A DNA stretch of 64,000 nucleotides, from IMG/VR virus record IMGVR_UViG_3300022927_000014; one strand, 5' to 3'. The stretch's first letter is position 1. Each line of letters begins with the position of its first letter. The notes beneath the pieces were generated by a model. That model had not been told where the DNA came from, ran no database searches, and saw only the letters and a program-made list of their open reading frames with translations. This stretch comes from an uncultured virus (IMG/VR IMGVR_UViG_3300022927_000014). Taxonomy: Duplodnaviria; Heunggongvirae; Uroviricota; Caudoviricetes. Of the stretch, positions 30,698 to 59,070 are shown one piece after another. The position numbers and the translations under genes are program-made.

Positions 30698-31183
30698 ATG
30701 AGAAGAATCACAGCATCCGAGAAAATCGCCCAGCTTGAAAAGAGAGTCGCTCAACTTGAAAAAGAAAGCTTTGACTTAAAGCAGATTCCAGATTGGCTCT
30801 TTGGAAGAGTGGATTCTAAAATGGAAGACCTTCATACACAACTTAACTACAACTTCAAAAATCTTTTTGGAAACAAGGTTAAAATCACCTATCCTGTTAA
30901 ACAACAGATCAAAAACCCTTTTAATGTTTCACAAGCTAAGTATGTAGGTAAGCTCATTGTTGGTCGTGAACACATTAACTACACTGTTCTTGTTCTTAAC
31001 AACTCTAAAATCCAACTCGAGGGACTCAACCCTTTCTCACCAGAGCAGTTCTATAAGTCTTCTAACTTTGTTTTCTACATCTCTAACAAGAAGGTTGTTT
31101 CTTCAAGAGACATTACCTCTGTTGCTTCTTTAGAAGCTATTGTAGATGCTATTGAAGCTAAGTACTCTCATATCTTAGCCTAA
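30698..31183 (+). CDS. Leader-bearing orphan protein (leader MRRITASEKIAQLEKRVAQLEKES)
   Basis: RBS AAAGGA; N-terminal 24 aa shared with four other genes; body unrelated to theirs. Confidence 0.75.
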   Translation: MRRITASEKIAQLEKRVAQLEKESFDLKQIPDWLFGRVDSKMEDLHTQLNYNFKNLFGNKVKITYPVKQQIKNPFNVSQAKYVGKLIVGREHINYTVLVLNNSKIQLEGLNPFSPEQFYKSSNFVFYISNKKVVSSRDITSVASLEAIVDAIEAKYSHILA

Positions 31184-31629
31184 ACCCCATCTAAAGGGTG
31201 TCTTAAAGAATGATGTGAAGGCTTACTTGATTTGAAGTAGGCTTCCATTATTCTTACTAGGTCAGAATTTGTCCATGCAATACCATCATTAGATTCTTCT
31301 GGTTTTGGTTCTACTACTTCAGGCTCAAAAGGCATTTCTGAAAGAACTATTGCATGGACATTCTTCCTACCTTGTGCAATAGCTTTTATAGCTCTATGGC
31401 AACCATCTATAATATTTCCATTGTGTACTAAGATAGGGAATGAGAGATCAGCTTCCAATACTCTTCCTATATGATCACACAGGTGTGTCTGACCCCAGAA
31501 CCATTTTTGTAAAAAAGAGTCTGGTATAGACCATTCAACGAATGTTTGGTCTTTCGTCATCTCCCAAAGTTTTTTTACTTCCCATTGGTAAGTCACACCA
31601 TTTTCAGTGTGGGAATAAGTATGTCCCAT
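31180..31629 (-). CDS. ParB/sulfiredoxin N-terminal-like domain protein
   Basis: ADLSFPILV...IIDGCHRAIKA motif. Confidence 0.7.
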   Translation of the reverse strand: MGHTYSHTENGVTYQWEVKKLWEMTKDQTFVEWSIPDSFLQKWFWGQTHLCDHIGRVLEADLSFPILVHNGNIIDGCHRAIKAIAQGRKNVHAIVLSEMPFEPEVVEPKPEESNDGIAWTNSDLVRIMEAYFKSSKPSHHSLRHPLDGV

Positions 31630-31633
31630 GTGT

Positions 31634-33412
31634 TTACTCCATGCTAGAGAGCATCTCTAAGTTTGCTTTTAATCTTCTTCTGTAACTAGGGTCTCTTTTA
31701 ACCCTACTAGCAATTCTTTGCAGAGCTGCTTTTTTGTTTCCTTTGAACTTCTTTTTAATAAAGTCAGCAACGATACCAACAGTCTTAATGCCTTGACTAA
31801 AGAGGTATTTAACTAGCCAACCTAGTAGTATAAAAGGTTCTGATGCGATTGCAAAGAGAATACCTACCAAAGCAGTAATAAAAGAAGCAGAGCTTAAAAG
31901 GATAGATAAAGTAGTAGATCCTAATACAACACCCATTTTTCTTAGGTGTGAAGCTGTAAACTTAGCATTTGTTAGCAATGCAAAGATGGCTACAAAAACA
32001 ATGAACCCACCAGCAGAAGTTGCAGCACCCATTAGCACTGTTTTTGCAGAAAGAGCTTTACCTGTAAAGAGGAAACTCTTAAGGTAAGGCCAGATAAGCT
32101 TAAAAGCAGCTATTTTCAGCCCAACAAAAATTGATTTAACTGCTAATATCTTAGTGTCTGGCAACAAAGATAGATACTTCATTATCTCAGAATACTTGCG
32201 AATAGAGTACATCAAAACAATTTGTGCTTTAGAAGAAGGCTCTTTGAAGTTTGGTATTTCGTGTAGGCTAAATTTACCTTTTTGTACAGACTTGTACTCA
32301 TCATACTTTCTTCTAAGCTCAAACAACTCTCCTTTTAGCAAAGCCTCATCTGCTCTATTGTCAGCCAGCTCAATCTTCTCTTCTAGTTCTCTAATTTGCA
32401 TAGCTACAGATTCAAACTTTGAATTATTCTCAGCTACAACTTCTCTGTACTTTTGAGAAATTGTACTTTTAATGTCTTTCATATCTTCAAAGCTAGTAGT
32501 AAGAAACCATCCTTCTTTTAGATTTATATACTCATCTAACAAAGAAAGGTACTCTTTGTAGTTTGGATCAAAGCCAAAAAATTTCTCTAGACGTTCAAAT
32601 GGTATATTTGCAGCCATAGCTACTTCGCCTAGAGTTTTTGCTTTAACTAAAGTAACGACATTATCCGCCCAGATTGCAGGATTCCTTTGAGGGTCAAATT
32701 CATCTAAAACCATCTGTGCGAAAGGGTTGTGCTCTGCCATTTTCTTTACTGTCTTTGGAGTATACTCAACAAACATAGGCCAAAGAGAGCCTAAGTGTAT
32801 TTTTTTATTCAAGACAGCTCCAATCAAGTACTTAACCTTAGCAACCATTCCCTTATCTATCTTCTTGCTTGCTTTTTCAGAGATGTCATTAATGACAGTA
32901 GCAGTAGCATCTAAAACTACTTTCTCTTTATCAGAAGCAAGTCTTCTATTGTCAGACATAAGGTGTGCAAGAATTAAGTTATTCATACTAGCTTTTTTAC
33001 TGTGTTTCATTTTCCAAGACTTCCATTTGCTATGTGCAGGACTAGATTTGAGTGAGGGGTCATGCCCCCAATTTCTGAGACTGATTTCCCATTTGGACAT
33101 TCCAGAGCCCTTAATAGGTTGTCCTGGTTTGCCACCTAACATACGAGAGTTAAAACCATTCTCCTGAGCAGCATTATCAAAGTCTTGAGCTGTCCATTTG
33201 TCGAATGGCTTCGACTTTCTTCTCTTTATTCTGTGAAAAGAGTCATAGCCAGATTGTATATCACCAGCTTCTTCTGCTTCTTCTCTATTAATTGAAGCAA
33301 GAAGCCTATCATCATTCTTTGCCCATGAGTCTAAAGACTTCTGACTCATGTTTATAAGTGACTTCCACTTATTGTAGATTTCTTTTTTTTCTTCTGGTGA
33401 TCTTTTGGCCAT
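31634..33412 (-). CDS. Multidomain protein: DUF3140-like N-terminus, coiled coil, multi-pass hydrophobic region
   Basis: INMSQKSLDSW...SLRNWGHDP resembles DUF3140; KKAS/RRLAS linker; long hydrophobic C-terminal third; KKAALQRIASR tail; RBS AAGGAGG. Confidence 0.65.
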   Translation of the reverse strand: MAKRSPEEKKEIYNKWKSLINMSQKSLDSWAKNDDRLLASINREEAEEAGDIQSGYDSFHRIKRRKSKPFDKWTAQDFDNAAQENGFNSRMLGGKPGQPIKGSGMSKWEISLRNWGHDPSLKSSPAHSKWKSWKMKHSKKASMNNLILAHLMSDNRRLASDKEKVVLDATATVINDISEKASKKIDKGMVAKVKYLIGAVLNKKIHLGSLWPMFVEYTPKTVKKMAEHNPFAQMVLDEFDPQRNPAIWADNVVTLVKAKTLGEVAMAANIPFERLEKFFGFDPNYKEYLSLLDEYINLKEGWFLTTSFEDMKDIKSTISQKYREVVAENNSKFESVAMQIRELEEKIELADNRADEALLKGELFELRRKYDEYKSVQKGKFSLHEIPNFKEPSSKAQIVLMYSIRKYSEIMKYLSLLPDTKILAVKSIFVGLKIAAFKLIWPYLKSFLFTGKALSAKTVLMGAATSAGGFIVFVAIFALLTNAKFTASHLRKMGVVLGSTTLSILLSSASFITALVGILFAIASEPFILLGWLVKYLFSQGIKTVGIVADFIKKKFKGNKKAALQRIASRVKRDPSYRRRLKANLEMLSSME

Positions 33413-33442
33413 AAGACACCTCCTTACACTACCTTATTTATA

Positions 33443-33457
33443 CTTATAAATAGATTA
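33443..33457 (-). promoter_or_regulatory. Putative late promoter motif
   Basis: TAATCTATTTATAAG about 31 nt upstream of 33412; first 13 nt identical to the 28725 site. Confidence 0.6.
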
Positions 33458-34607: not shown

Positions 34608-34618
34608 TTTATTTATAC
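34605..34618 (+). promoter_or_regulatory. Putative late promoter motif upstream of the topoisomerase IB gene
   Basis: TAGTTTATTTATAC about 38 nt upstream of ATG 34656. Confidence 0.45.
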
Positions 34619-34655
34619 TTTGCTGTAGGCAACAAGTGCAGCAAAGGTGTTGAAG

Positions 34656-35993
34656 ATGACTACTAAGAAGAAAAAGATTAAAGAAAAGAAACAGCTTGCC
34701 TTTCAAAAAAAGTCAGCAGCCGCTTTTAGAGCTTTAGGGAGAGCTGTTTATAGACATAGGCACAAAGCTAGGAAAAAGTACCCTAGCAGGTCAAATGAGT
34801 CGTTTAAGAAAAGAGGTAGATGGCTTATCCGCTTTCTGGATAAAGAACCTAAGACCATAGAATTTCTTGATACCTTTATTGGAACAGAAGATATGAATCC
34901 TCGAACAAAAGGTTGGAGAAGAAAAGTCTTAGAGCTTCTCTCTCTTTACCTTTTAAACAAGATCACATTGAGAGAAGCCTCTAAACTATTTGTGCCTATA
35001 GCTGCTAAGTCTTATGAAGTTGTTGCTTTAAACAAACAGCAAAATAAGATTCAAAAAACATTGCCACCAGAGATCATGGCCTTTTTGCCTAGCTCTATTG
35101 TTGTAGAAGTAGACAAAAACAACAACATCAAGGGCATCAATGATATGTTTGTAAATGATACATATACATTGAAGGAAAAAATAAAGACCCAGAAGAAGCT
35201 AGTTTACCGATACAACACTATTGTTAAGCAAGTAAAGAAAGATATGAAATCCAGAGATGAGATTACTAAGCTCTGTGCTTTAGTTACTTCCATCATAATG
35301 GAAACAGGCATTAGACCTGGAAAGATTGGTAATAGTGCTGTCAAGATTATAGAAGACAAGAAGATAGAAGTAGAGACTTTTGGAGCTGTTTCTCTCAATG
35401 CAGACCATGTGTCTTTTGTTAAAGACAACTTTGCAGAATTAAAGTTTGTAGGTAAGAAGGGTGGCTTGAACACAGCATCTCTCAAAGACTCAGATGTGAT
35501 CAAAGTTTTAAAAGACTATGTAGATAACTCATTGAAGTCTGGTTCTAAGTACATATTTACAACTAGAGATGGTGAACAGTTTGATTACAAAGACCTTTCA
35601 AGCTACTTTAGGAAGAACTTTAAGGGCTTTAAAATCACAGACTTTAGAAAGCTAAGAGCTACTAGAACTGTTTTTGAGGTTCTTAAAGATGAAAGAAGAA
35701 ATATGCTAGGCAGGATCAAAGAGATTGCGTCTGGTGAGGTTGAGTCTATCAAAGCTAAAGCTACCGAAGAGATTGTTAAAACAATAGAATTGGCTCACCA
35801 GCAGGCACAGGCTGCCTTGAGTCACATGGATTCAAGCACAACTCAAGATGCTTATATTAACCCTCAGGTTCTCTTACGCTTCTTAAGCACTGCAAAGATA
35901 GAGTCTTCTTTTAGAGACTATATCATGCAAGGCAAAACAAAGTTCAGATTTGATCCTATGATGTTTGTTAAAGAAGCTGAGAAGCTGGCATAA
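34656..35993 (+). CDS. DNA topoisomerase IB (poxvirus/bacterial type)
   Basis: Catalytic residues in order: ETGIRPG (R), FVGKKG (K), KITDFRKLRAT (R), LSH (H), TTQDAYINP (Y). Confidence 0.85.
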   Translation: MTTKKKKIKEKKQLAFQKKSAAAFRALGRAVYRHRHKARKKYPSRSNESFKKRGRWLIRFLDKEPKTIEFLDTFIGTEDMNPRTKGWRRKVLELLSLYLLNKITLREASKLFVPIAAKSYEVVALNKQQNKIQKTLPPEIMAFLPSSIVVEVDKNNNIKGINDMFVNDTYTLKEKIKTQKKLVYRYNTIVKQVKKDMKSRDEITKLCALVTSIIMETGIRPGKIGNSAVKIIEDKKIEVETFGAVSLNADHVSFVKDNFAELKFVGKKGGLNTASLKDSDVIKVLKDYVDNSLKSGSKYIFTTRDGEQFDYKDLSSYFRKNFKGFKITDFRKLRATRTVFEVLKDERRNMLGRIKEIASGEVESIKAKATEEIVKTIELAHQQAQAALSHMDSSTTQDAYINPQVLLRFLSTAKIESSFRDYIMQGKTKFRFDPMMFVKEAEKLA

Positions 35994-37150: not shown

Positions 37151-38572
37151 TTACTCTAAAGAAGTTCCTTTAATTTCTTTAATCTTATCAGAGATTTTTT
37201 TGAGGTACTTATCCGTAGTAGCCTCTATGCTTTTTAGTTCTATACCTGTAAACTCAAAATACTGCATAGCTTCTTCATTATCTAATAGCTGTTTAGCTAC
37301 CTCTGATGTACTGATTTCACCTTGGTAATTCTCACCTTCTTCATTGGTTATATAGCACAAACAAAGCTCTCCTTGAGGGTTTTCCTTTGTGAAAACATAA
37401 CATTTATCTCTGATATAGGTTGAGGAGCTAGGGTCTGATGGTTTGTAGCCCTCTCTCTTATCAATTTCCTCTAAGACTTTTTGAGCATGTTCAATAGGGT
37501 ACTCTAAAAGCATACCTTCCATATACCCATATGGCTTAGTTCCAAGTACAAGATGTTTTCTTCCTGTGCTATATATGTTGAAAGACCTTGATAGGTTATT
37601 AACATGGCCTCTTCTCTTTTTTGTGATTAGCTCTGGAAAGATAGGTTCATACATAAGAGAGCCATAGACGAAAACCTTTAGAGTGTTTTCATGTGGGGCC
37701 ATTAGAGGAATGTCTAACTTATTTTTTTCTAGGTTTGACAGAGTGACTTCACCCTCATCATTTAGATAAATACGCTTAACACAAAACTTACATTTCTCTT
37801 TGCCCTTGAAGTGTTTCTCATAGCCCTCATAAATACTATCTTCATCTATTAGGATTACAGTCATTCTTTTATACACAGGGTCTAATATGATCTGATTAGA
37901 AGTGAACATATTGTCTGTCTTTCTAACCACATTAAAAGGATTATGTATGTCCTTTATTCTTTGAGTATAAAGCTTTTTGACTAGATCCATTGGAGATCTT
38001 TTGTAGGATTGCATTGCTTTCAATGCAGTATTGTATCTCGTTTCAGAAGATTCCCTATCTTCACCCTCAAGGTAGCCTGCGTCTGGGTGTCTAATACCGT
38101 GATTAGTTCTAACAAAGTGTTTATCTGTAATCTCCTCAACCTTTGGAGAATGCAAGCTTGTTTGTTCTACAATAAAAGTGTTCTTACCATCCGTGATAAT
38201 ATTATGACCTCTAACACCATTCCTATGGTGTGTCATTACATGAAGTGCTTCTAAAAGAGAATTACACTCTAAAGCCTTTAGAAACCTCCAAGCATCTCCT
38301 GAGAATCTGTTTCTATCTCCAGGTCTTTTTTTCTTACCCTCTTTTTCATCAGAGATTACAGCAAGAGCAGCATTTGTTATTGCAATACCATGCTCATTAA
38401 TGCCCTCTACCCAGCCCGATATAGTATCTTGGAAATAAAGTATTTCAGTGCCATTTTCAGCCCTTACATGGTATATCTTAAAAGTAGGGACATAGTTCCT
38501 ATCTCTATTTTTGAACACTATCTTTCTATTTCCTACTTCAGTGAGTGCAATCACACAAGCGTTTTTATCCAT
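37151..38572 (-). CDS. Fusion of an N-terminal Cys Ntn-hydrolase (C45/C59-like) and a ChaC/GGCT-like cyclotransferase
   Basis: C-VIA...FKNRDR...EGINEHGIAITN...VRTNH (Ntn fold), followed by VFVYGSLMY...RSF...EEIDKREG (GGCT/ChaC fold). Confidence 0.8.
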   Translation of the reverse strand: MDKNACVIALTEVGNRKIVFKNRDRNYVPTFKIYHVRAENGTEILYFQDTISGWVEGINEHGIAITNAALAVISDEKEGKKKRPGDRNRFSGDAWRFLKALECNSLLEALHVMTHHRNGVRGHNIITDGKNTFIVEQTSLHSPKVEEITDKHFVRTNHGIRHPDAGYLEGEDRESSETRYNTALKAMQSYKRSPMDLVKKLYTQRIKDIHNPFNVVRKTDNMFTSNQIILDPVYKRMTVILIDEDSIYEGYEKHFKGKEKCKFCVKRIYLNDEGEVTLSNLEKNKLDIPLMAPHENTLKVFVYGSLMYEPIFPELITKKRRGHVNNLSRSFNIYSTGRKHLVLGTKPYGYMEGMLLEYPIEHAQKVLEEIDKREGYKPSDPSSSTYIRDKCYVFTKENPQGELCLCYITNEEGENYQGEISTSEVAKQLLDNEEAMQYFEFTGIELKSIEATTDKYLKKISDKIKEIKGTSLE

Positions 38573-39052: not shown

Positions 39053-40117
39053 CTACCAGACTTGGAAGTGAACTCCTAAAGACCAAGTGTTAGTTCCATC
39101 AGATCCTGCTACCCAACCGAGACCAGGTGCTAGGTTTAGGTTCTTACCTAGCAAATAAGGATGCCATGTTGCTTTTGCCCCCAAGAAAACATTTGAGGGA
39201 GTGATAACACCATTAGCACCTATTCTGTATTGGCCTTTCTGGAAGTTAAGTAAACTTGCTCCGATGGAAAGCCCAAATTCATTCGCTTGATAAGTACTGC
39301 CTACCAAAAGACTAGGTTCAAAAAGTTTTAACAAAGTAGAGTTCTGAGCATCTTTTTTAGGTACATATATGAGCTTACTGTCAAGGTTAGGGTCGCCTTT
39401 TATGAGCTTGCTTTCAAGACCTGGTATTGGAACAAAATTGCCTTCTTGAACATAGCCACCTAATACATGAATCCCTTGATTCTGAACAGCACCAGAACCC
39501 AATCTTGATTGATCTTCACCATATGTGATGGCTACAACTTTAAAGGCTAAGTTAAGGTCAATGCTTCCAAGACCTTTCCATAGATTCAGAGAAGAGAATC
39601 TAGCTAGTGGTTTGCCATTTACTTGATAAGGAGACTCCCATTCAAAAGTGAATGGGGTACATTTATCTGGGTGGTCAGAGCATCTAGTTATATCTAGTCC
39701 GTCTACACCTTTCCAAGACGGGGGTGGTGCTGTTTTTTCTTTTACAGTCCTACCTATTTTCCCAATCCCTTTTTTAATCCTACCCTCCATACCTAAAACT
39801 CTTTGAGAGATACTATCTACCCTAGCACCTGTTTCTTTTGTGTATTTGTAAATAGCATCTTGTGTTCTTTGGTCTAGATTCGAAATAATCTTTGAAGATT
39901 GTTCTTCTAGCTCTTTCCTTGAAACCATTTGAGATTTAACAACATTAATCTCATCTCTGGTCTCTGACAAGATTCTAGCAGTCTTACTTAACTCTCCATT
40001 CATTTGTTTCTGAATAGTGTTGTCTAACTGACTTATCTTATAGGTCATCCATGCATTGTTAGCAAGAGAGAGTGTGAGCAGACCTGAAGCTATATATGCT
40101 GCTATTTTAATATCCAT
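39053..40117 (-). CDS. Envelope protein: N-terminal TM/signal, coiled coil, C-terminal amphipathic beta-strands
   Basis: MDIKIAAYIASGLLTLSLA; heptad region; ends ...WSLGVHFQVW; start 40117 behind AAAGGA. Confidence 0.65.
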   Translation of the reverse strand: MDIKIAAYIASGLLTLSLANNAWMTYKISQLDNTIQKQMNGELSKTARILSETRDEINVVKSQMVSRKELEEQSSKIISNLDQRTQDAIYKYTKETGARVDSISQRVLGMEGRIKKGIGKIGRTVKEKTAPPPSWKGVDGLDITRCSDHPDKCTPFTFEWESPYQVNGKPLARFSSLNLWKGLGSIDLNLAFKVVAITYGEDQSRLGSGAVQNQGIHVLGGYVQEGNFVPIPGLESKLIKGDPNLDSKLIYVPKKDAQNSTLLKLFEPSLLVGSTYQANEFGLSIGASLLNFQKGQYRIGANGVITPSNVFLGAKATWHPYLLGKNLNLAPGLGWVAGSDGTNTWSLGVHFQVW

Positions 40118-40161
40118 TTTATTGTCCTTTGTCTTAGGCATCATTAAAAAAGAGGTATATA

Positions 40162-41010
40162 ATGAATAAAATATCAACACAAGAAATTAGAAAGCTTGAA
40201 ATTAGGATAGCAAGGTTAGAGAAGGAGTCCAAGATTCTTGATTGGTTGAAGTCTATCCCTATAAACCTACTCTCTAAGATTCAAGACTCCTTTGGAGAAA
40301 TTTCTTCTCTTTTAAAGCTTACCTTAAAAAAGAATAAGGAAAGTATCTTAGAGGGCTTAGTTAAGTTCTTAGAAGTTAGAGTCAGCAGTGCATTAGATAA
40401 ATCTCTTATGTCTGGATACCCTATTAGGTTTTATATCACTAATTTTGACCCAAACAATCCTATGAACTCTGAAGCCCAGCTTATGGTTAAAGAAGTAGGT
40501 GGTGAGTTAAAATCTTATGAAGCTACTATCCGAGATATGCCATCAATGCTTAAAGATGTTGAGGGTCTACCCCCTAGCATAGATAAAGATATTAAAGGTG
40601 CATATATTTCATGGTGGAAAGACTTTGAAGAAGAACTAAAAATGCTTCGTGAAGGAAGGATGAGTAGGTCTACGGATTTGAAATCTTTCTGGAACAGAAT
40701 CAAAGGTGCAAGTAAGTTTCTTTACAGGTTCTTGAGAGTTGTCTACAGCTTTAAATGGGCTTATGAAGTGTTCTCTTTAGTTGTGATGTTTACAACCCTA
40801 ATGCCTTTGGCAGAAGTTGCACCAGAAAGAGGGAAGACCCTCACTTATCTAGGTGTTGGTAAGATGATCTTAAACATATTTGAAAAGGTTCTTCGCAGAA
40901 GAAAAGTAAATATGGATCTCTTTGATGAGCTTGCAGCTAAAAAAGCATCTTCTCACCCTTACCCATATTGTAATAGCTTAGTCTCTCATTACGAAAGGGT
41001 TTGCAAGTGA
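40162..41010 (+). CDS. Leader-bearing membrane protein (paralog of 41689..42567)
   Basis: Leader MNKISTQEIRKLEIRIARLEKES; DIKGAYISWWKDF and RRRKVNMD shared with 41689; hydrophobic segment. Confidence 0.75.
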   Translation: MNKISTQEIRKLEIRIARLEKESKILDWLKSIPINLLSKIQDSFGEISSLLKLTLKKNKESILEGLVKFLEVRVSSALDKSLMSGYPIRFYITNFDPNNPMNSEAQLMVKEVGGELKSYEATIRDMPSMLKDVEGLPPSIDKDIKGAYISWWKDFEEELKMLREGRMSRSTDLKSFWNRIKGASKFLYRFLRVVYSFKWAYEVFSLVVMFTTLMPLAEVAPERGKTLTYLGVGKMILNIFEKVLRRRKVNMDLFDELAAKKASSHPYPYCNSLVSHYERVCK

Positions 41011-41636
41011 GGCAACTAACAGCATCACAGAAAATCGCTATCCTTGAGAACAGAGTAGCTCAACTTGAAAAACAAGCAATGCTTGAAAGCATCTTAGCTA
41101 AGATAAAAAGCAAGTTGTCCCGATTCAAGCCCCTTAAGGTAGCTCAACATGTGGCCAAAGACTCTAAAATGACAGTGGGGAAGTTTGAAGCCTTAGCAAA
41201 AGCGAATCCAAAGGAACTTAAAGAGTTAAAGAAAGCTGTGAGGTCTTCTAATCCTCAAACCTCTATTTTAAAGCTATTAGACATTTACAATAATAAAGAA
41301 AATGCAATCTATTTGAAAAGTGTATATGGGATAGATCTTGAGTCTCAAGAAAGAACAAAGAATGCAAGGAAGCTAGTTCAGCTCAACAGTCTGCCTGACT
41401 TTGCTCTCTATTTTGGTAGTATCATAGCCTTTTTTATTTGTGATTTCGTTGTTGAGCTTTTATTTGACTATCTCCTTGAACTGATAGCTGAAGATCTCGA
41501 GAAATCAGACAATGTATTCAGGAAACTTAAACGTGCTTGCCTCTACTTGATCTTAGCACCTACTATGGGATTACACATACTACTTTCTGGGATCAAAGAA
41601 GGGCTGAAAGCAATGAACCCTTTTGCGTTTTTTTAA
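41007..41636 (+). CDS. Leader-bearing protein with C-terminal hydrophobic helices
   Basis: GTG at 41007 overlaps the upstream TGA (GTGA) and gives a leader identical to that of 41689; hydrophobic FALYFGSIIAFFICDFVV and CLYLILAPTMGLHILL. Confidence 0.75.
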   Translation: MRQLTASQKIAILENRVAQLEKQAMLESILAKIKSKLSRFKPLKVAQHVAKDSKMTVGKFEALAKANPKELKELKKAVRSSNPQTSILKLLDIYNNKENAIYLKSVYGIDLESQERTKNARKLVQLNSLPDFALYFGSIIAFFICDFVVELLFDYLLELIAEDLEKSDNVFRKLKRACLYLILAPTMGLHILLSGIKEGLKAMNPFAFF

Positions 41637-41650
41637 TAACTGTTTTATAG
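41634..41650 (+). promoter_or_regulatory. Putative late promoter motif
   Basis: TAATAACTGTTTTATAG about 39 nt upstream of 41689. Confidence 0.5.
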
Positions 41651-41688: not shown

Positions 41689-42567
41689 ATGAGACAACTA
41701 ACAGCATCACAAAAAATCGCTATTCTTGAGAACAGAGTGGCTCAACTTGAAAAGCAAGCAATCATTCAAATGATTAAGAATCTGGGAATGAACTGGTTTA
41801 AACCTCTAATTGCAGCAGCTCAAGACCTTGTGTCCACTTTCAAGGGGTCAATTATAAGTAATAGAGATACTTTTGCTTCTGCTGCTGAAATGAACTTACA
41901 GGCGAGACTGACCGAAGCTCTCCAAAGAAATATGTTTTTTGGGAAAACCACATCAATAAGTGTTGAAAAATTTGATGCTAAAAACCCAGTAAACTCTGTT
42001 TTGAAAGTCTCCTATTCTGTAAATGGAGAACCCAGGTTTCTTGATTTCACTCTGAGTTCTGTACAGAAAATTAGAGAGATTGACAGTAAAACCCAAAAAG
42101 ACATTATGGGAGCATATGTTTCATGGTGGAAAGATTGGGGTGATTCTCTGGATATTGTAATCAATGGCAAATCTCCATCAAAAAGTATGGTTCAGAGCGT
42201 AATTGATTTTTTCTCTAGGAAGTTTAAGTTCCTTGGGAGATTGCTTTCTGCACTAGTTAAATTTGGAACAAAAATAAGAACCCTAACCCTGATCCCTACT
42301 TTAGTAGCATCTTTAATAGTTTGCCTTTGTGGACCTCTCGGCCTAGTTGTTGGTAGTACTGTAGCTATGAACCAAATTGGGTTAATGACACTACCAAAAG
42401 TTGTAGACATGATTCTTAAGATGATTGAGGGTGCTTTCAGAAGAAGAAAAGTAAACATTGATAAGTTCAATGAAATAATTGGCAAACAAGCATCTGTGAA
42501 TAAGTATGCAAGTAAATACCCACACACATATTCTATGTTATTAAGACTTGAGGGTGCTGGAGTCTAA
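41689..42567 (+). CDS. Leader-bearing membrane protein (paralog of 40162..41010)
   Basis: Leader MRQLTASQKIAILENRVAQLEKQA; DIMGAYVSWWKDW; hydrophobic hairpin; KQAS/KYAS tail. Confidence 0.75.
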   Translation: MRQLTASQKIAILENRVAQLEKQAIIQMIKNLGMNWFKPLIAAAQDLVSTFKGSIISNRDTFASAAEMNLQARLTEALQRNMFFGKTTSISVEKFDAKNPVNSVLKVSYSVNGEPRFLDFTLSSVQKIREIDSKTQKDIMGAYVSWWKDWGDSLDIVINGKSPSKSMVQSVIDFFSRKFKFLGRLLSALVKFGTKIRTLTLIPTLVASLIVCLCGPLGLVVGSTVAMNQIGLMTLPKVVDMILKMIEGAFRRRKVNIDKFNEIIGKQASVNKYASKYPHTYSMLLRLEGAGV

Positions 42568-42568
42568 T

Positions 42569-43195
42569 ATGAACCAGAGAGACATAAAGAATATCAGAGA
42601 AGATCTTGATCGAATTGAAAGTAAATACCAAGTCTTAGGGAGTGCTATGAACAACCCTAAGTACAGTTGGAACTTCTATTCAATTGAAGATCTTAAAGAC
42701 ATCCTTAAAGAGGTTGATTCTTTCCATAAAGCAGATCTTCAAAAAGCACAGTCTTGGGCTAATATAGAGCTTAATAGAATATCTACTCCAGGTAGCTTTG
42801 GGATTGATCAACTTAACTTTGGATGGCATGACCTTATTTACAAAACAAATAAGGTTTTGATGATCAAAGAATATCTCCCTGAACTTATTAAAAAAAGAGA
42901 GCGAGATAGAGATGAAGTTCTTGAGGACATCAAAGATGTAAGAGAGCTTGTTGCTAAATCATACGAAAGCGACAGTGATCCTTTGGTTAGATTAAGTCTT
43001 GAAAGACTCACTAAGAAGATAACAAGACTCAAACCAGTATTTAAAGATGTCACTGAAGAAATGAGCGAGTTAAAAAGAGACTTAGAGAGGGCTCAAGAGT
43101 TCCTACCTAAAGTTAAAAATAAGCTTAGAAAGTGGTTTAGGTTAGCAGACCAACAAGCTAGTATAAGAGTGGCTAGTAGACACCTCAAAAAATAA
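42569..43195 (+). CDS. Helical hypothetical protein with a C-terminal QASIRVASR tail
   Basis: Start at ATG 42569 behind GGAG; coiled-coil composition. Confidence 0.65.
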   Translation: MNQRDIKNIREDLDRIESKYQVLGSAMNNPKYSWNFYSIEDLKDILKEVDSFHKADLQKAQSWANIELNRISTPGSFGIDQLNFGWHDLIYKTNKVLMIKEYLPELIKKRERDRDEVLEDIKDVRELVAKSYESDSDPLVRLSLERLTKKITRLKPVFKDVTEEMSELKRDLERAQEFLPKVKNKLRKWFRLADQQASIRVASRHLKK

Positions 43196-45871: not shown

Positions 45872-46645
45872 ATGAAAGTTGAATTAGATGGTGGAAATAT
45901 CACACTTTATCATGGAGACTGCACCGAAGTATTGAAGTCCCTATCTCCAAACAGCGTAGAGGTTGCAGTTACATCACCTCCTTATAATCTTCACCTTGAG
46001 GGTGCTGAATACTCCAAATCTAAAACCGCTATGGCATGGAATAAGAAGTATGAAGATTGGTATGATGACAATATGTCAGAGTGGATGTATCAAGGGTGGC
46101 AACAAAGCGTAGTGCATGAACTGGTGAGAGTTTGTAGAAGTAGCGTATTCTACAACCACAAGATCAGATATGCATACCATCCTCGCAACAAAGAAAGAAA
46201 CCTTACAAACATATACCACCCTATGGATTGGCTGAACAAGTTTCCTATCTGGTGCGAAATCATCTGGGATAGGTGTGGTATAGGTCACCCCTGTGGTCGG
46301 TATCACATCCAGACCGAAAAGATCTATCAGATAGGCAAACCTTGTAAATGGGATAACAAAGATGGTCTGACCAACATTTGGAAGATCCCTCCATCAAAGA
46401 ATAAAGGTCATGTGTGTACCTTCCCAGAAAAGCTGGTGGACAACTGCATATTACCTACGACAGAAAAAGGTGACATAGTGATAGATCCTTTTCTGGGGTC
46501 TGGTACTACTGGGGTAGTCGCTGTTCAAAGAGGTCGTAAATTCATCGGGATAGAGAAAAATGAAAAGTTTTTTGAATTAGCTCTAAAAAACATAGAGGAC
46601 GAGATTAAGAAAAGAGATTCATCTCTGTTCTTCTATGAGGGCTAA
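45872..46645 (+). CDS. Beta-class DNA methyltransferase (third copy, divergent)
   Basis: LYHGDC, VTSPPY, HVCTFP, DPFLGSGTT; start at ATG 45872 behind GGAGG. Confidence 0.92.
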   Translation: MKVELDGGNITLYHGDCTEVLKSLSPNSVEVAVTSPPYNLHLEGAEYSKSKTAMAWNKKYEDWYDDNMSEWMYQGWQQSVVHELVRVCRSSVFYNHKIRYAYHPRNKERNLTNIYHPMDWLNKFPIWCEIIWDRCGIGHPCGRYHIQTEKIYQIGKPCKWDNKDGLTNIWKIPPSKNKGHVCTFPEKLVDNCILPTTEKGDIVIDPFLGSGTTGVVAVQRGRKFIGIEKNEKFFELALKNIEDEIKKRDSSLFFYEG

Positions 46646-46955: not shown

Positions 46956-47264
46956 ATGACAGATAGTTTTAAAGATGAGATAGAACTTCATGCGGAAGAA
47001 AATGGGCTTTCATACCATGATGCAATCTTGGATTTGGTAGCTAAAGAAAACATGATGAGTAAAGACAGAGTAATTGCTGTGGGTTTCAGCACTCATAAAG
47101 CAATGTCTCACCTGATATACAATACATGGTCTGACTTTAGGTCTTTTTCTTTAGCTTTTAATAATCTCATTCTGGCTAAATATGTTAAGCCTGCAAGATA
47201 TAATAGGACTATTAGTCAAAGTTCAATGAGAAGTCTTTACATGAACGCTAAAAGAGCAAATTAA
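46956..47264 (+). CDS. Hypothetical protein
   Basis: 102 aa, 2 nt after the upstream stop. Confidence 0.55.
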   Translation: MTDSFKDEIELHAEENGLSYHDAILDLVAKENMMSKDRVIAVGFSTHKAMSHLIYNTWSDFRSFSLAFNNLILAKYVKPARYNRTISQSSMRSLYMNAKRAN

Positions 47265-47905
47265 GTTCTCTCATACTTTATAATTTCATCTACAAGGCCA
47301 AGCTCAAGGCACTTCTCTGGGTTCATCCACAGATCCCTTTTAAGAAGTTCTTTGAGCTTTTTCTTTTTGAGCTTGGTGTGCTTCAAGTAGATAGACTCTA
47401 ACATTTCCATGAGTGAGTCCATAGATTCTTTCTCATCTACAAGATTCCCATAAGTACCCCAGACACCTGTACTTACTTGGTGAATAAGCATAAAGCTGTG
47501 TTCTGTGATGTGTCTTTGAGCACCAACACAAGACATGATAGTTGCAGCACTCGCAGCAGATCCTTCTACATAAGTGAAGACAGGAACTTCTGATTCTAGG
47601 ATATGACTAGCACCAGCAAGTCCTGAGAATGCACACCCACCACCAGAGTTTATGTGTAAGTGGATAGGTGGGATAGAGGGTAGGCTTAGGTCAGTCATAA
47701 GATTAACAATCTGTTGACCTACACTCCTGATAGCAATCCCAACTTCCATTACAGACTTTGGGGTGATGTCTGCATAGAGGTAAATGTGGTTATCAGAGAT
47801 AGTGATGTCACCTTGGTAATTACCCTCTTGAGAACCTGCATATACTTGTCCCTCTGAGTTTTCATAAACTCTGCGGTTTGTTGGTCTGTTTAGATACTTA
47901 TTCAT
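47261..47905 (-). CDS. clpP: ClpP-like serine protease
   Basis: LHINSGGG, AASAA (Ser), MLIHQ (His), DLWMNPEKCLELGLVDEI (Asp region); start 47905 behind GAGG. Confidence 0.88.
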   Translation of the reverse strand: MNKYLNRPTNRRVYENSEGQVYAGSQEGNYQGDITISDNHIYLYADITPKSVMEVGIAIRSVGQQIVNLMTDLSLPSIPPIHLHINSGGGCAFSGLAGASHILESEVPVFTYVEGSAASAATIMSCVGAQRHITEHSFMLIHQVSTGVWGTYGNLVDEKESMDSLMEMLESIYLKHTKLKKKKLKELLKRDLWMNPEKCLELGLVDEIIKYERT

Positions 47906-55142: not shown

Positions 55143-57179
55143 AGCGATTACAATGTAATTGACTTTAATACTTATTGAGCCATTACTGTAGTTTGCAATC
55201 CCTAAAACACTAGAATGGCCAGCAGCATCACTATACCTCAGTTGCAGGTAGCGTTTTGTCGCATACACAAAGGAAGCCCCAACATAAAGATAAGGACTCC
55301 CATCTATCTCCATAAAAGAGCTGGTGGAAGTCACAAAAGATAAGACTTTAACATTATCATATAGCAGATTCCCACTTGAGTCTATGGGGCTGTAAAGACC
55401 TGTGTAATCTTCTGTAGTCTCTGGATAGAAAAGGGTGTTTTCATTATTATTTAGATGACCCATACGAATGTCTGTAGATCCTCCAGAATTATAAGTCACA
55501 TCTTGAAAGAATAAAGGAATCACATCAACATGGTAGTTCAGATTGATGTCAAAAGAAACAGACCCAGAACCTAAGATACTTATACCTAAAGCTCTCAATA
55601 CATTATTAGCACCTAGAGCCATTAATTTGTTTGGTGCATCCGAGACAATAGCACTTGAAGATACTGTGACATTAGTACCAGCATCAATCTCCACACCAAG
55701 ACCTGAAAGTGATACAGTATCTGTGGCTGTAGTAGTTATATTCTCTGCCGTAGTTTCAATCGAACCACTAACAGCAGAGAATTCAATCAAACCACTAGCA
55801 GCAGTAGTGGTCACACTTGGTGCTGTAATATTTATTTCATCATCTCCAGTAACATCTACTGTGCGACCATCAATAGCAACAGAACCTCTCTTTTCTAAAA
55901 TACTGTTGCCACTAACAGCACCACCTCGAATGGTCACAGAACCTCCAAAGATACCACCATTGCCATTATTTAAACCTAAGAAGCTACCACCCTCAATCAA
56001 TACATCTCCTGCATATGCAAAGTCACTATCCAAAAGAGAGAAATCAAAGTCTTCAACAGCACCACCTCGAATAAAAACCTTTCCTTTAGTTGCTGCATCT
56101 TTAGAGGTAGGTTCATCAGCAGTACCAGCTCCGATAACAACATCTCCAGGTGTGCCACTTAGATTTGAATCGCCACTGTAGATATGAATGTCACCACCAC
56201 TTGAATCTGTAAATCCTGAAGCACCCTCTATGGTTAAACCACCTGCTGTGCCACCAGAATAGTTATCGCCTACTTTTATATCTATATCTCCACCAATACC
56301 TTGATCTGTTTTACCTGTACCTATATTTATAGAGCCAGCAGTTCCACTATTTGAATTGCTAGTTTTGATAGAAAGGTCACCACTACTAGAAGAACCGTAT
56401 AGTGAGCCTGTGAAACTACCTGTACTGATAGAAATACCACCTGTAAATTCACTAGGGTCTGTTCGATCTGAAGTGTGTAAATTAACACCAGACGCTCTAC
56501 CTTTTATATCTACATAGTAGGCATCCATTGTAAGATTCCCATAACCATAGGCTATTAAGTTAATGTAGCCACCCCAAGTTTCTGAATCTTGCAAACCATT
56601 GTTTGCTTTACCACCTAAAATATTAACATCTCCAGCTCTATTAAAGTAAGATCCATCGAGAGCCATATTGCCCCCTCTTACATCAATACGGCCTGGATCA
56701 TCTCCTGTATTGTCACTTTGACCATAGATTAAGACATTTGCATTCAAGCTTGTGTATGTAGGCTTAGGTACAGGGGAGATTAAAATATCATCTCCAGACC
56801 TAAGCTCTAGTCTTTCTTCACTTTGGACATATATGTGACCTCTTTCAGAGAGGGTAAGAGGAGTAGCATACTCTCCACTTTTAATAAGTATTCGACCAGA
56901 GCTAACTCCTGTACCAGAAATCAACTCTATTTTCCCACCGACACCGCCTGTTTTTGACTCTCCTGCATGCAATAGGATTTCACCCCCAGCACCATCAAAA
57001 GAGTCTCCAGATTCTAGGGTAATAATGCCACCATCTCCAAAACCAGAGGCAGAGTTTATAAGTATACCTCTTTCAGAGCTTCCGAAAAGAGAAGCACTAT
57101 CTATTGAGGGTTTAATAATTCGACCTCTTTGTTGAGACTGGCTGATTGAAACTTCTAAGGAATCTTTAGTTGAACTCAT
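55140..57179 (-). CDS. Gly/Ser-rich repeat protein, probable tail fibre/spike (beta-helix-like)
   Basis: Recurrent GG[DE]I.I..G units (GGIITLESG, GGEILLHAG, GGDIDIKVG, GGDIHIYSG). Confidence 0.6.
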   Translation of the reverse strand: MSSTKDSLEVSISQSQQRGRIIKPSIDSASLFGSSERGILINSASGFGDGGIITLESGDSFDGAGGEILLHAGESKTGGVGGKIELISGTGVSSGRILIKSGEYATPLTLSERGHIYVQSEERLELRSGDDILISPVPKPTYTSLNANVLIYGQSDNTGDDPGRIDVRGGNMALDGSYFNRAGDVNILGGKANNGLQDSETWGGYINLIAYGYGNLTMDAYYVDIKGRASGVNLHTSDRTDPSEFTGGISISTGSFTGSLYGSSSSGDLSIKTSNSNSGTAGSINIGTGKTDQGIGGDIDIKVGDNYSGGTAGGLTIEGASGFTDSSGGDIHIYSGDSNLSGTPGDVVIGAGTADEPTSKDAATKGKVFIRGGAVEDFDFSLLDSDFAYAGDVLIEGGSFLGLNNGNGGIFGGSVTIRGGAVSGNSILEKRGSVAIDGRTVDVTGDDEINITAPSVTTTAASGLIEFSAVSGSIETTAENITTTATDTVSLSGLGVEIDAGTNVTVSSSAIVSDAPNKLMALGANNVLRALGISILGSGSVSFDINLNYHVDVIPLFFQDVTYNSGGSTDIRMGHLNNNENTLFYPETTEDYTGLYSPIDSSGNLLYDNVKVLSFVTSTSSFMEIDGSPYLYVGASFVYATKRYLQLRYSDAAGHSSVLGIANYSNGSISIKVNYIVIA

Positions 57180-57271
57180 GTTAACCTCTCTTTTTTAGTA
57201 TAGGCTTAATAAAAGACATAGTGATAGTTAATCTATTGCTTGTCACTTTTGCTAAATAAAGGAGTTCATCT

Positions 57272-58606
57272 ATGAGTAAATACAACGCTATAAGAGAAGA
57301 GAATGAAAAGTTTAATGCATGGATTCTTGAAGAAGAAGAGGCAGGTGGCTTCTTTGATCCTATAGAAGAAAGAAAAGTTAGGTTTTTTAATGAACTGAGT
57401 GAAGAAGGCAAGGAGAAAGCATACGAAGAATTTGAAGCTACCAAAGAAATCAAAGACATTAAAAGATATAGGGCTCTGGCATTTCAGGGCAAGCTTTTTG
57501 CTTTGCGGTGGTTGTTAAAAAGATCTAAGGATTTTGAAGAATTTAAAGAGCCTTTAGAAAACAAAACCAAGAAATTAGATCTCAGTCCTAGTAAAGATCG
57601 AAGAACAAAAATCAAAGATATGACCCAGACCAAAGCAAGAGACTTATACTTGGAAGATGTTATATTTGATGACTTAGACCTATCTTGGTCAGACTTCTCG
57701 GGTAGCACTCTAGTCAACTGTAGTTTTAATAACACAACACTGACAGGTGCAAAGTTTGTAAACTGTTCTTTACAGATAGTAGACTTTGGTGGTGCAGACC
57801 TCACCTTAGTGGACTTCAAAAATGTGGATCTTCGAGCCACCAAGGACTTTGGTAAGGCAACAATTAAGCAAACCAACTTATCTGGTGCTGATGTTAGAGG
57901 TGTTGATCTAAGAGGTGCTGGAGAAAGTAAGGAAGATCTTTTCTATGTTAGTCCAACAACTAAATTTGATGTTACTAACAAAAAGCTGATTACTAAAGTG
58001 CCTATTTACATGGAGAAGTTTGATGTTCTGTTAAAAAACATAGAAGACCAAATCAATAAAGGAAAAGAAATTGGATATGATAAGTCTAAAGTCAAAGAAC
58101 TAAAAAAATATCTTAATGAAAATACATTTAAGGTCTTCTATGGAGATAGGATATTAAAAGTACTAGACTACTACAAAAAAGAGCTTTCTTGGAGAAAACG
58201 CTTGCCAGATTCCTTTTTGCCTTTTTCTTATTCTTTTAAAGACTTAAAGAAGTTCTTTAGGAACACTGACAGCCAAGTTAAGAATATGGTTAGCAAGATT
58301 AATCAAAAGATTGGCTCAAAGAGATATGTACTGACAGAGCCTGTTAATACTAACAGCCATACTAACAGATTAAAGGGCAAGATAGTCTATGGGGGAAATC
58401 TTTTAGGTTTATCTCAAACAGTGCCCTATTACATAATTGTAAACATTGGAAATTCTGGCTTTGGCCTTAGAAGATTTTATACACCAGAGTCTTATATCTT
58501 CTGCATACCTCAAAAGAGTTGCTCATCCGAATTTGAAGAATTTGGTCAAAGAGAGCTAGGTACTATTGTTATGAAGATAGAAGACTTAATCTGGAGAGAA
58601 CGTTAG
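57272..58606 (+). CDS. Pentapeptide-repeat protein
   Basis: LDLSW SDFSG STLVN CSFNN TTLTG AKFVN...ADLTL VDFKN VDLRA; RBS AAGGAG. Confidence 0.8.
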   Translation: MSKYNAIREENEKFNAWILEEEEAGGFFDPIEERKVRFFNELSEEGKEKAYEEFEATKEIKDIKRYRALAFQGKLFALRWLLKRSKDFEEFKEPLENKTKKLDLSPSKDRRTKIKDMTQTKARDLYLEDVIFDDLDLSWSDFSGSTLVNCSFNNTTLTGAKFVNCSLQIVDFGGADLTLVDFKNVDLRATKDFGKATIKQTNLSGADVRGVDLRGAGESKEDLFYVSPTTKFDVTNKKLITKVPIYMEKFDVLLKNIEDQINKGKEIGYDKSKVKELKKYLNENTFKVFYGDRILKVLDYYKKELSWRKRLPDSFLPFSYSFKDLKKFFRNTDSQVKNMVSKINQKIGSKRYVLTEPVNTNSHTNRLKGKIVYGGNLLGLSQTVPYYIIVNIGNSGFGLRRFYTPESYIFCIPQKSCSSEFEEFGQRELGTIVMKIEDLIWRER

Positions 58607-59070
58607 TACTGATATAAAGCCATGATCTTTTGACGCTGGCGAGGTGTTCTAACGCTATTTTTGACGATAGTTTTAATGTTCTGGATGATGAATTTAGGGT
58701 TTTCAGAAGAGAAGTTAGGCACTACCACTAAATTAAATTGTTCTCTGGTGTATATACTTGTTAAGTAAACCCTTAGTAGGTCTTGCTCCTTATCAAGCTC
58801 TACATTAATAAACATAAGTTGTTGTCTATCATTTTTGATATGACCTCGTGCCTCTAATTGGTATATTTTATTGGGCTTTTTGATGTAGCCATCATCACCT
58901 TTGGTGTTTGCAAGACCATAGTCTACCAGAGCATCTCCTGTTCCGTTAGCTATTGCCTTAAGGGTTTCTTTAATTTTATCTCCAAAAATGTCAAATAGTC
59001 CAGCTTCTTTTTCAAGCCTGGCGATTCTCATTTCAAGAGATCTGATTTGTTGTGCTGCTGTTCTTCTCAT
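58603..59070 (-). CDS. Leader-bearing orphan protein (leader MRRTAAQQIRSLEMRIARLEKEA)
   Basis: Start moved to ATG 59070 behind TAGGA so that the leader aligns with the other four. Confidence 0.75.
   Translation of the reverse strand: MRRTAAQQIRSLEMRIARLEKEAGLFDIFGDKIKETLKAIANGTGDALVDYGLANTKGDDGYIKKPNKIYQLEARGHIKNDRQQLMFINVELDKEQDLLRVYLTSIYTREQFNLVVVPNFSSENPKFIIQNIKTIVKNSVRTPRQRQKIMALYQY

What the first reader, a model, noticed from the sequence alone, without database searches (positions are those of the whole stretch)
30698..59070. Interchangeable 23-24 aa N-terminal leader on five dispersed genes: candidate capsid-targeting (virion cargo) system
Seen in sequence: 30698 MRRITASEKIAQLEKRVAQLEKES, 41007 and 41689 MRQLTASQKIAILENRVAQLEKQA, 40162 MNKISTQEIRKLEIRIARLEKES, and 59070(-) MRRTAAQQIRSLEMRIARLEKEA. 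The consensus is I-x-x-L-E-x-R-[VI]-A-x-L-E-K-[EQ]-[AS], and similarity stops right after K-x-[AS]. It has no hydrophobic core, so it is not a Sec signal. Established: T4 internal proteins use a short cleaved capsid-targeting sequence, and phiKZ-like head proteins carry propeptides removed by the prohead protease after Glu. Inference: this is an analogous but different short coiled-coil address tag that loads unrelated cargo into the prohead and is cut after K-x-A/S, so that the cargo is injected at infection.
Basis: partly seen in the sequence, partly recalled or inferred. Interest (0 to 1): 0.88.

Follow-up and report, generated by a model that had tools for sequence, protein, structure and literature searches.

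The report
Cleavable coiled-coil capsid-loading tag, jumbo phage
About thirty mostly unrelated late proteins of this uncultured giant phage start with the same short helix followed by a likely cut site for the phage's head protease, so the helix is probably a removable "load me into the head" label like phage T4's, an idea not yet measured but testable in the cultured relative phage G.

Summary
The five leaders are real. The 312-kb jumbo myophage (capsid 38% identical to phage G gp27) carries 29 copies, 28 of them N-terminal, none in shuffles; 1,115 protein clusters carry it library-wide. It has two separable parts: a helix bearing the Arg-h-x-x-h-Glu trimer motif (71 of 73), and a K/R-x-A/S site that survives when the spacer changes. 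That site also flanks the head-protease domain and studs the scaffold, but not tail proteins. Leader genes share an upstream motif with structural operons. Relatives use unrelated leaders ending in the same site: LR745208 (11 copies) and cultured phage G (28 genes). Best reading (0.62): a T4-CTS-like prohead-loading propeptide cut by the head protease, here after K/R-x-A/S rather than Glu. Packaging, cleavage and injection are all inferred. Corrections: 41007 starts with GTG, and 40162 and 41689 are full-length paralogues. Against: the site is also 2.4-fold enriched in enzymes, no virion data were found, and the receptor is unknown.

The parts
30698..30769 (+). Leader, 24 aa (helix with R-V-A-Q-L-E, then K-E-S) on a 161-aa gene (30698-31183) with no family match
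30645..30656 (+). Late-type upstream motif (TA-N5-TTTAT) about 40 nt before the 30698 start
   Evidence: promoter function inferred
40162..40230 (+). Leader, 23 aa, ending K-E-S, on a 282-aa gene (40162-41010), paralogue of 41689
40111..40122 (+). Late-type upstream motif before 40162 (fits the pattern; scores only 0.6 bits with the matrix trained on structural operons)
40939..41010 (+). C-terminal K-K-A-S site and short helical trailer of the 40162 protein
41007..41078 (+). Leader, 24 aa, GTG start, ending K-Q-A, on a 209-aa gene (41007-41636) with a hydrophobic C-terminal segment; overlaps the 40162 stop
41637..41648 (+). Late-type upstream motif before 41689
41689..41760 (+). Leader, 24 aa, same peptide as 41007 with five synonymous differences and an unrelated upstream sequence, on a 292-aa gene (41689-42567) with a hydrophobic segment
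42484..42567 (+). C-terminal K-Q-A-S / K-Y-A-S sites and helical trailer of the 41689 protein, kept across the paralogue family
59002..59070 (-). Leader, 23 aa, ending K-E-A, on a 155-aa gene (58603-59070) with no family match
43154..43195 (+). Short C-terminal basic helix (R-V-A-S-R-H) ending gene 42569-43195; a second, shorter tag type
   Evidence: role inferred
31634..31735 (-). C-terminal K-K-A-A / R-I-A-S sites and trailer of the 592-aa gene 31634-33412
   Evidence: role inferred
60874..60954 (-). N-terminal K-Q-A-S / K-A-A-S sites of the 609-aa gene 59125-60954
   Evidence: role inferred
62071..62157 (-). C-terminal K-A-A-S site and helical trailer of the 541-aa gene 62071-63696
   Evidence: role inferred

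Best explanation
The leader is a removable prohead-loading propeptide of a phage-G-like jumbo myophage. Step 1 (inferred from sequence): the genes are expressed late with virion genes. Step 2 (predicted): the helix forms a short parallel three-stranded coiled coil, so tagged proteins bundle with each other, and the basic bundle joins the strongly acidic scaffold core as the prohead forms; the receptor is not identified. Step 3 (inferred): the head protease (genome 176745-178133) cuts after K/R-x-A or K/R-x-S, trimming itself, the scaffold, the portal N-terminus and the tags; some cargo also loses a C-terminal trailer. Step 4 (inferred by analogy with T4): the freed bodies stay in the mature head and enter the cell with the DNA, some as membrane-inserting proteins, others as host-directed enzymes. 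Shown here: the tag, its modularity, its selection as peptide, and the distribution of the site. Not shown: binding, packaging, cutting, ejection.
For: Modularity: 80 tagged bodies of four genomes fall in 67 clusters; 142 bodies from the library search in 112 clusters; 148 of the best 150 library hits begin within the first 7 residues. Separable site: K/R-x-[AS] within 16 residues of the helix in 75 of 80; where it is not adjacent, K/R-x-A follows after a 1-7 residue spacer in 20 of 27 against 13% of 7,452 background windows. Same site in head proteins: K/R-x-A-S 20 observed vs 3.0 expected in 9 head-module proteins, 7 vs 7.5 in 19 tail proteins; 23 of 23 protease orthologues have it just before the catalytic domain and 19 of 23 just after; 31 of 31 scaffold orthologues have it 15-28 residues before the C-terminus; portal K-V-A-M before the conserved domain in 4 of 4 genomes. 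Convergence: LR745208 (capsid 89% identical) has an unrelated helix-turn-helix leader, 11 of 11 copies ending K/R-x-A; phage G has a short basic tag on 28 of 680 ORFs vs 0.3 expected, on bodies that include SLOG, GNAT and deoxyribosyltransferase-like domains. Late-type motif trained on 13 structural operons only: 13 of 20 leader genes vs 8 of 31 enzyme genes here; 22 of 29 vs 4 of 37, 10 of 15 vs 1 of 30, 8 of 9 vs 4 of 23 in G001, G003, G004. Peptide-level selection: pN/pS 0.25-0.37. Trimer: R-h-x-x-h-E in 71 of 73 (motif defined in PMC3653964); three copies model as a parallel in-register bundle, score 0.72, best of 3 controls 0.09, runs agreeing in 100% of contacts, pLDDT 86; the mark was reached by 20 of 30 solved pairs and 1 of 23 single chains.
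Against: No virion proteomics or N-terminal data for this phage or for the tagged phage G proteins could be read. K/R-x-A-S is also enriched in 48 replication and metabolic enzymes (26 vs 10.8) and in the remaining 232 genes (57 vs 31.7), so the site is not exclusive; the head set was chosen after I had seen the sequences. At the 8-bit threshold the promoter contrast in this genome is not significant (9 of 20 vs 7 of 31, p=0.13). In this genome 13 of 27 leaders end in K-x-S rather than K-x-A, and 5 of 80 lack the site. The protease assignment rests on PHROGs, synteny and invariant His/Ser residues; my fold model was poor. The trimer pass may come from memory of designed coiled coils, which are the closest solved sequences, and the calibration covered two copies only. 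The scaffold does not carry the leader helix. Orthologue counts are of related sequences and are not independent events.
Confidence: 0.62

Rival explanations
1. The tag does bring proteins into the prohead and is cut, but the bodies are core filler or are degraded and leave with the scaffold; nothing is injected.
For: Tagged bodies are themselves enriched in K/R-x-A-S (17 vs 3.7 expected); nearly all have no known domain (1 of 150; 0 of 49 above cut-off); a 52-aa gene is little more than two degenerate leaders.
Against: Most extra sites are single and near the C-terminus, as a trailer; bodies include folded enzymes (JmjC hydroxylase; WGR domain; SLOG, GNAT in phage G); the 41689 family keeps a conserved core across 15 sequences.
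Confidence: 0.13
2. The leader is a retained trimerisation module that clusters accessory late proteins outside the head (cell membrane, tail, cytoplasmic assembly); the K-x-A/S at its end is a helix cap, not a cut site.
For: R-h-x-x-h-E is nearly invariant and three copies model as a bundle (0.72 vs best control 0.09; 20 of 30 and 1 of 23 in calibration); 139 of 149 library hits have K/R-x-[AS] directly in helix register.
Against: The site moves with variable spacers; unrelated leaders without the trimer motif end in the same site in LR745208 and phage G; the site marks head but not tail proteins.
Confidence: 0.1
3. Tagged proteins with hydrophobic segments are membrane anchors that tether proheads during assembly; the protease releases the head by cutting the tag, so the bodies stay in the old host cell.
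For: 13 of 30 tagged proteins here have a TM-like stretch vs 25 of 269 other genes; T4 proheads nucleate on the inner membrane (PMC5694885).
Against: Only 5 of 150 library hits are TM-like; most bodies are small and soluble; it cannot explain dozens of different bodies.
Confidence: 0.05
4. The leader is a by-product of a mobile expression cassette (late promoter, ribosome site, first codons) copied in front of new genes; the peptide has no address function.
For: Leaders are genome-specific: nearest neighbour in the same genome for 61 of 73; they come with a shared upstream motif.
Against: pN/pS 0.25-0.37; 41007 and 41689 differ at five synonymous sites and no replacement site while their upstream DNA is unrelated; invariant residues use varied codons.
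Confidence: 0.04
5. The tag is a degron or adaptor signal for the phage's ClpP-like protease (window 47261-47905) or a host protease, timing the turnover of late proteins.
For: A ClpP-type gene is in the window (phrog_94, E 2.5e-39); phage G also encodes ClpP and ClpX (PMC12484599).
Against: The site brackets the catalytic domain of the head-operon protease in its orthologues, as expected for self-processing; ClpP does not cut at one defined site (own knowledge).
Confidence: 0.06

Closest known systems
T4 capsid-targeting sequence (CTS) of internal proteins and Alt, removed by gp21
   Same: Short shared N-terminal peptide on unrelated proteins; proposed loading through the scaffold core and removal by the prohead protease (PMC5694885 passages).
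   Different: 16-24 residues with a trimer-type coiled coil rather than 10-20 residues without one; proposed cut after K/R-x-A/S rather than after Glu; about 30 genes; capsid of the phage G type; C-terminal trailers on some cargo. Function not measured here.
Propeptides of SPN3US and phiKZ head proteins (gp245, gp175 proteases)
   Same: Several sites per protein, processed portal, protease that trims its own C-terminus, identical N-termini on diverged paralogues gp53/gp54 (PMC5694885, PMC10052503 passages).
   Different: Those cut at A-x-E or S-x-E and most propeptides exceed 100 residues; different phage lineage; no shared short leader on dozens of unrelated bodies.
Bacillus phage G head module (gp14 portal, gp19 protease, gp21, gp26, gp27)
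   Same: Capsid 38% identical; K/R-x-A-S/A sites in gp7, gp14, gp19; its own N-terminal tag on 28 ORFs.
   Different: Phage G lacks this coiled-coil leader; its tag is 6-12 basic residues. I found no paper describing either the tag or the protease specificity; the 2020 structure paper was not held.
R-h-x-x-h-E trimerisation motif of short coiled coils (coronin 1, cc-beta)
   Same: Arg(g)-h(a)-x-x-h(d)-Glu(e) in 71 of 73 leaders; definition from PMC3653964.
   Different: Here it is a 2-heptad N-terminal tag followed by a putative protease site; the same paper notes the motif also occurs in some dimers.

Membership tests
T4-type capsid-targeting sequence | Short peptide shared at the N-terminus of otherwise unrelated proteins | tested here: met
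   28 of 29 hits N-terminal; 67 body clusters of 80; 148 of 150
T4-type capsid-targeting sequence | Ends in the motif found at processing sites of scaffold, portal and the protease itself | tested here: met
   K/R-x-A/S by sequence only; motif not exclusive to head proteins
T4-type capsid-targeting sequence | Cleavage after Glu by a T4 gp21-type protease | tested here: not met
   The conserved end is K/R-x-A/S; the protease is of the phage G gp19 / cluster C type. So not a member of the T4 CTS family in the strict sense
T4-type capsid-targeting sequence | Genes expressed late with virion genes | tested here: inconclusive
   Shared upstream motif in four genomes but no usable RNA data
T4-type capsid-targeting sequence | Tagged proteins are in the mature head without the tag | not testable with these tools
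   No virion proteomics readable
T4-type capsid-targeting sequence | Tag is sufficient to package a foreign protein | not testable with these tools
   Needs a fusion experiment
Prohead serine protease (HK97 gp4 / T4 gp21 / assemblin fold) | His and Ser catalytic residues, gene next to scaffold and capsid | tested here: met
   phrog_18299 E 1.3e-16; H130 and S181-M-G invariant in 22 of 22; order protease, scaffold-like, decoration-like, capsid
Prohead serine protease (HK97 gp4 / T4 gp21 / assemblin fold) | Fold match to a solved prohead protease | tested here: inconclusive
   Model pLDDT 42, no match
Major capsid protein with removable propeptide | N-terminal extension ending in the protease site | tested here: inconclusive
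   K-L-A-A at residues 26-29 lies inside the region aligned to phage G gp27, which lacks it; the 6WKK chain is 280 of 282 residues. Probably not processed
R-h-x-x-h-E trimeric coiled coil | Arg(g), hydrophobic a and d, Glu(e) | tested here: met
   71 of 73; 148 of 149
R-h-x-x-h-E trimeric coiled coil | Forms a parallel trimer in solution | tested here: inconclusive
   Model only: 0.72 vs best control 0.09; 20 of 30 pairs and 1 of 23 single chains reach the mark; dimer and tetramer not modelled
Sec signal peptide | Hydrophobic core of 7-15 residues | tested here: not met
   Alignment shows a charged heptad pattern

The most novel reading that the evidence does not exclude
Phage-G-like jumbo phages run a large, open cargo system in which a K/R-x-A/S head protease is the fixed part and the address tag is replaceable: a self-trimerising coiled coil here, a helix-turn-helix in LR745208, a short basic run in phage G. 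The trimer tag would let any mix of tagged proteins co-assemble into the head core without a dedicated receptor, so a new gene becomes an injected effector by gaining about 70 bases; more than a thousand protein families would be pre-packaged anti-host or membrane effectors identifiable from their first 24 residues.
Probability: 0.35. Interest if true: 0.82.

Novelty: new variant of a known kind. Interest (0 to 1): 0.62.

Why it matters
If right, it assigns a location (inside the head) and a processing rule to about a tenth of the genes of a widespread jumbo-phage clade and to at least 1,115 protein clusters with almost no annotation. It predicts the specificity of the phage G-type head protease, which I could not find in print, and names 28 phage G genes whose products should be head cargo with trimmed N-termini. 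That can be checked by re-searching existing phage G mass spectra. A portable 24-residue packaging tag would also parallel the engineering use of the T4 CTS.

Tried and rejected
tblastn of the 24-aa leader against GenBank phages: no match. Leader profile in LR745208, Tunturi_5 and phage G: 0 matches; G009 0 and G005 0 then 1 weak. The leader against cellular genome contigs was not searched, so its presence in prophage-like contigs is open. PHROGs, Pfam and ESM Atlas give no family for the five window proteins. AlphaFold model of the 41689 family (pLDDT 56) found no fold match in BFVD; protease model too poor to use. Idea that the scaffold carries a copy of the leader helix as partner: not found in 31 scaffolds and 23 proteases, best score 1.9 bits; only 10 of 31 scaffolds hold a K/R-h-x-x-h-E. 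De novo search for a shared leader in Tunturi_5: no cluster, three weak candidates. A short R/K-V-A-x-R-F/Y tag: terminally biased (23 of 34 matches, 19% of residues are terminal) but followed by the site in only 4 of 17 N-terminal and preceded in 3 of 7 C-terminal cases; left as a lead. RNA runs: two with small shares, scattered low-depth contigs over leader genes and the polymerase alike, no evidence on expression. Phage G proteomics in PMC12484599 is only in a figure, no table among the supplements, and by its text detects 55% of nucleic-acid genes, so it would not discriminate.
Full report
Observation. The five leaders are at 30698, 40162, 41007, 41689 (+) and 59070 (-), each at the start of its ORF. 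The 41007 gene starts with GTG. The window lies in a 312,136-base single-contig virus record, in which I called 337 genes. An HMM of the five leaders, iterated over 4,196 stop-to-stop ORFs, settles on 29 hits at E<0.05: 28 N-terminal, one internal; five shuffled sets gave none. The consensus is M-x(0-7)-I-x-x-L-E-x-R-[IV]-A-x-L-E-[KR]-x-[AS].

The phage. PHROGs (289 proteins scanned) finds a portal, terminase, baseplate genes, a head-maturation protease (genome 176745-178133) and a major capsid protein (180564-181442). The capsid is 89% identical to LR745208, 47% to Tunturi_5, 38% to Bacillus phage G gp27 and 29% to cluster C mycobacteriophages. Between protease and capsid lie a 549-aa protein of net charge -101, read as scaffold by position and composition, and a decoration-like gene. 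573 IMG/VR stretches encode a close capsid relative. The host is unknown.

Spread of the tag. Whole-record searches gave 32, 13, 17, 9, 0 and 11 copies in G001-G006 and 2, 5, 0, 12, 5 in five fragments. In four genomes 81 of 85 hits are N-terminal. A profile of 73 leaders matches 1,115 clusters of the 1.84-billion library at E<=0.001; 148 of the best 150 begin within the first 7 residues. The bodies are diverse: 67 clusters among 80 (five hits without the strict core were dropped) and 112 among 142. Homologous bodies occur with the long leader, with another tag or with only a short K/R-x-A start. Almost none is annotated: a JmjC hydroxylase and a pentapeptide-repeat protein among 31 from this genome, none above cut-off among 49 from relatives, one WGR domain among 150. 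13 of 30 tagged proteins here are TM-like against 25 of 269 others, but only 5 of 150 library hits.

Part one, the helix. The invariant residues form Arg(g)-h(a)-x-x-h(d)-Glu(e), the trimerisation motif of short coiled coils as defined in PMC3653964 (passages read), in 71 of 73 leaders and 148 of 149 library hits. Three copies model as a parallel in-register bundle with Glu21 against Arg16: score 0.72, best of 3 controls 0.09, runs agreeing in 100% of contacts, pLDDT 86; the mark was reached by 20 of 30 solved pairs and 1 of 23 single chains. The pass may reflect memory, since designed coiled-coil peptides are the nearest solved sequences; the calibration covered two copies only, and other stoichiometries were not modelled. 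The peptide is what is conserved: pN/pS is 0.25-0.37 in four genomes, and 41007 and 41689 differ only at synonymous sites while their upstream DNA is unrelated. Leaders are most similar within a genome (61 of 73), so they spread by copying inside each lineage.

Part two, the site. K/R-x-[AS] follows the helix within 16 residues in 75 of 80 leaders; in the 27 where it is not adjacent, K/R-x-A appears after a 1-7 residue spacer in 20, against 13% of background windows. K/R-x-A-S occurs 20 times in nine head-module proteins (3.0 expected), 7 times in 19 tail proteins (7.5 expected) and 17 times in tagged bodies (3.7 expected). It is also enriched in 48 enzymes (26 vs 10.8) and in the other 232 genes (57 vs 31.7); with the wider K/R-x-A-[SAG] these fall to 1.3 and 1.1-fold while the head set stays at 3.4-fold. 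I chose the head set after seeing the sequences. Among orthologues (47 and 58 BLAST hits reduced to 23 and 31 distinct), 23 of 23 proteases have the site just before the catalytic domain and 19 of 23 just after it, and 31 of 31 scaffolds have it shortly before the conserved C-terminal peptide. The portal has K-V-A-M before its conserved domain in 4 of 4 genomes. Phage G and Tunturi_5 head proteins show the same sites. This is the pattern reported for SPN3US and T4, where the protease trims itself, the portal, core proteins and cargo (PMC10052503 and PMC5694885, passages read), but there the cut follows Glu. The capsid protein is probably not processed.

Convergent tags. LR745208 has no copy of this leader but has 11 copies of an unrelated 27-residue leader, 10 N-terminal, all 11 ending in K/R-x-A. 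Phage G has a short tag, M-[KR]-R-L-[IVKR]-[KR], on 28 of 680 ORFs against 0.3 expected; 23 have K/R-x-[AS] just after, a count that is not independent of the tag's own basic end. They include gp9, gp12, gp13, gp17, gp20, gp38, gp53 and gp57, and bodies with SLOG, GNAT and deoxyribosyltransferase-like domains and a PARP-like match below cut-off, the sort of host-directed enzyme that T4 injects as Alt (analogy). Three unrelated tags ending in one site is the strongest argument that the site, and so the protease, is the fixed element. Tunturi_5 showed no shared leader.

Timing. A motif, about ATA-N5-TTTATA some 40 bases upstream, trained only on 13 structural operons, scores >=6 bits before 13 of 20 operon-first leader genes and 8 of 31 enzyme genes (p=0.009; at 8 bits 9 of 20 vs 7 of 31, p=0.13), and before 22 of 29 vs 4 of 37, 10 of 15 vs 1 of 30, 8 of 9 vs 4 of 23 genes in G001, G003 and G004. 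I read it as a late promoter; RNA data were uninformative.

Mechanism. Late-made tagged proteins bundle through the helix and join the acidic scaffold core; the head protease cuts after K/R-x-A/S, releasing tags, trailers and scaffold fragments; the bodies remain in the head and are ejected. The tag, its modularity and the site's distribution are shown; binding, packaging, cutting and ejection are inferred. The receptor is unknown, and the scaffold does not carry the leader helix. Rivals are core filler without injection, a retained trimerisation module, membrane tethers, a ClpP degron and an expression cassette, the last contradicted by the codon pattern.

Known or new. It works like the T4 capsid-targeting sequence but fails the Glu-cleavage feature, so it is not a member in the strict sense. 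Searches for a description (listings only) returned only T4, SPN3US and phiKZ work; passages of PMC12484599 (supplement files 1 and the first part of 2 read, all 8 searched for four terms), PMC7824862 and PMC11924767 do not mention the tag or the site. The 2020 phage G structure paper was not held and may report processing sites; its tables could bear on the claim. Earlier notes of this scan describe similar tags in at least 33 other genomes, so such tags look common among jumbo phages; none matched this sequence, and they are unchecked. Verdict: real, a new variant of a known kind, with a direct test available in phage G. Interest 0.62.

Noticed in passing
LR745208 (loci L174-L198), also G001 L098:12021-13097, G003 L131:3623-3958 and L126:18183-19283: A second leader family (L-R-S-K-L-I-R-L-A-H ... 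L-L-P-L-L, then K-x-A), 11 copies in LR745208 and degenerate copies in genomes that also use the coiled-coil leader.
   Followed up: partly
Bacillus phage G, JN638751 (loci L149-L173): Short basic N-terminal tag on 28 ORFs, five in the head region; at least seven of them open directly into an H-x-T-[SD] motif typical of ADP-ribosyltransferase folds.
   Followed up: partly
window 28772-30256, 31634-33412, 42569-43195, 59125-60954, 62071-63696: Genes without the long leader but with terminal K/R-x-A-S sites and short basic helical trailers; candidates for the same processing system.
   Followed up: partly
L006:5589-5747 (genome 155589-155747): A 52-aa ORF inside the cluster of leader genes that consists of two degenerate leader helices.
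   Followed up: no
genome 289857-291914 (L013) and G001 L101:7294-7938, L115:1198-1938, G004 L133:8458-9024: One domain starts right after different tags in four genes, and two neighbouring genes here share a swapped 97-aa segment ending in R-A-S / R-T-A-S plus a helix: domain shuffling at the putative cut site.
   Followed up: partly
window 34656-35993 and genome 184900-186267: Two topoisomerase IB-like genes (PF01028), both preceded by the late-type motif.
   Followed up: no
window 37151-38572: Fusion of an Ntn-hydrolase (PF03417) and a ChaC/gamma-glutamyl cyclotransferase domain.
   Followed up: no
window 47261-47905: ClpP-type protease gene apart from the head operon (phrog_94).
   Followed up: no
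window 7342-8949, 57272-58606 and at least ten genes elsewhere: Expanded pentapeptide-repeat proteins, one with the leader and two with C-terminal site plus trailer.
   Followed up: no
window 25230-26833, 45872-46645: Three DNA methyltransferase genes, two in tandem and near-identical at their starts.
   Followed up: no
genome 286351-289860 (L013): Purine cluster with an adenylosuccinate synthetase that PHROGs files under a PurZ-like name (phrog_1211); whether it is PurA or PurZ was not tested.
   Followed up: no
L079:4492-7212 and genome 252721-255843: A head protease interrupted by an intein (Hint domains); the terminase here looks intein-bearing by inspection.
   Followed up: no
window 30243-30569 (-): Small lipoprotein-like ORF with tandem acidic 9-residue repeats, divergent from the 30698 leader gene.
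   Followed up: no
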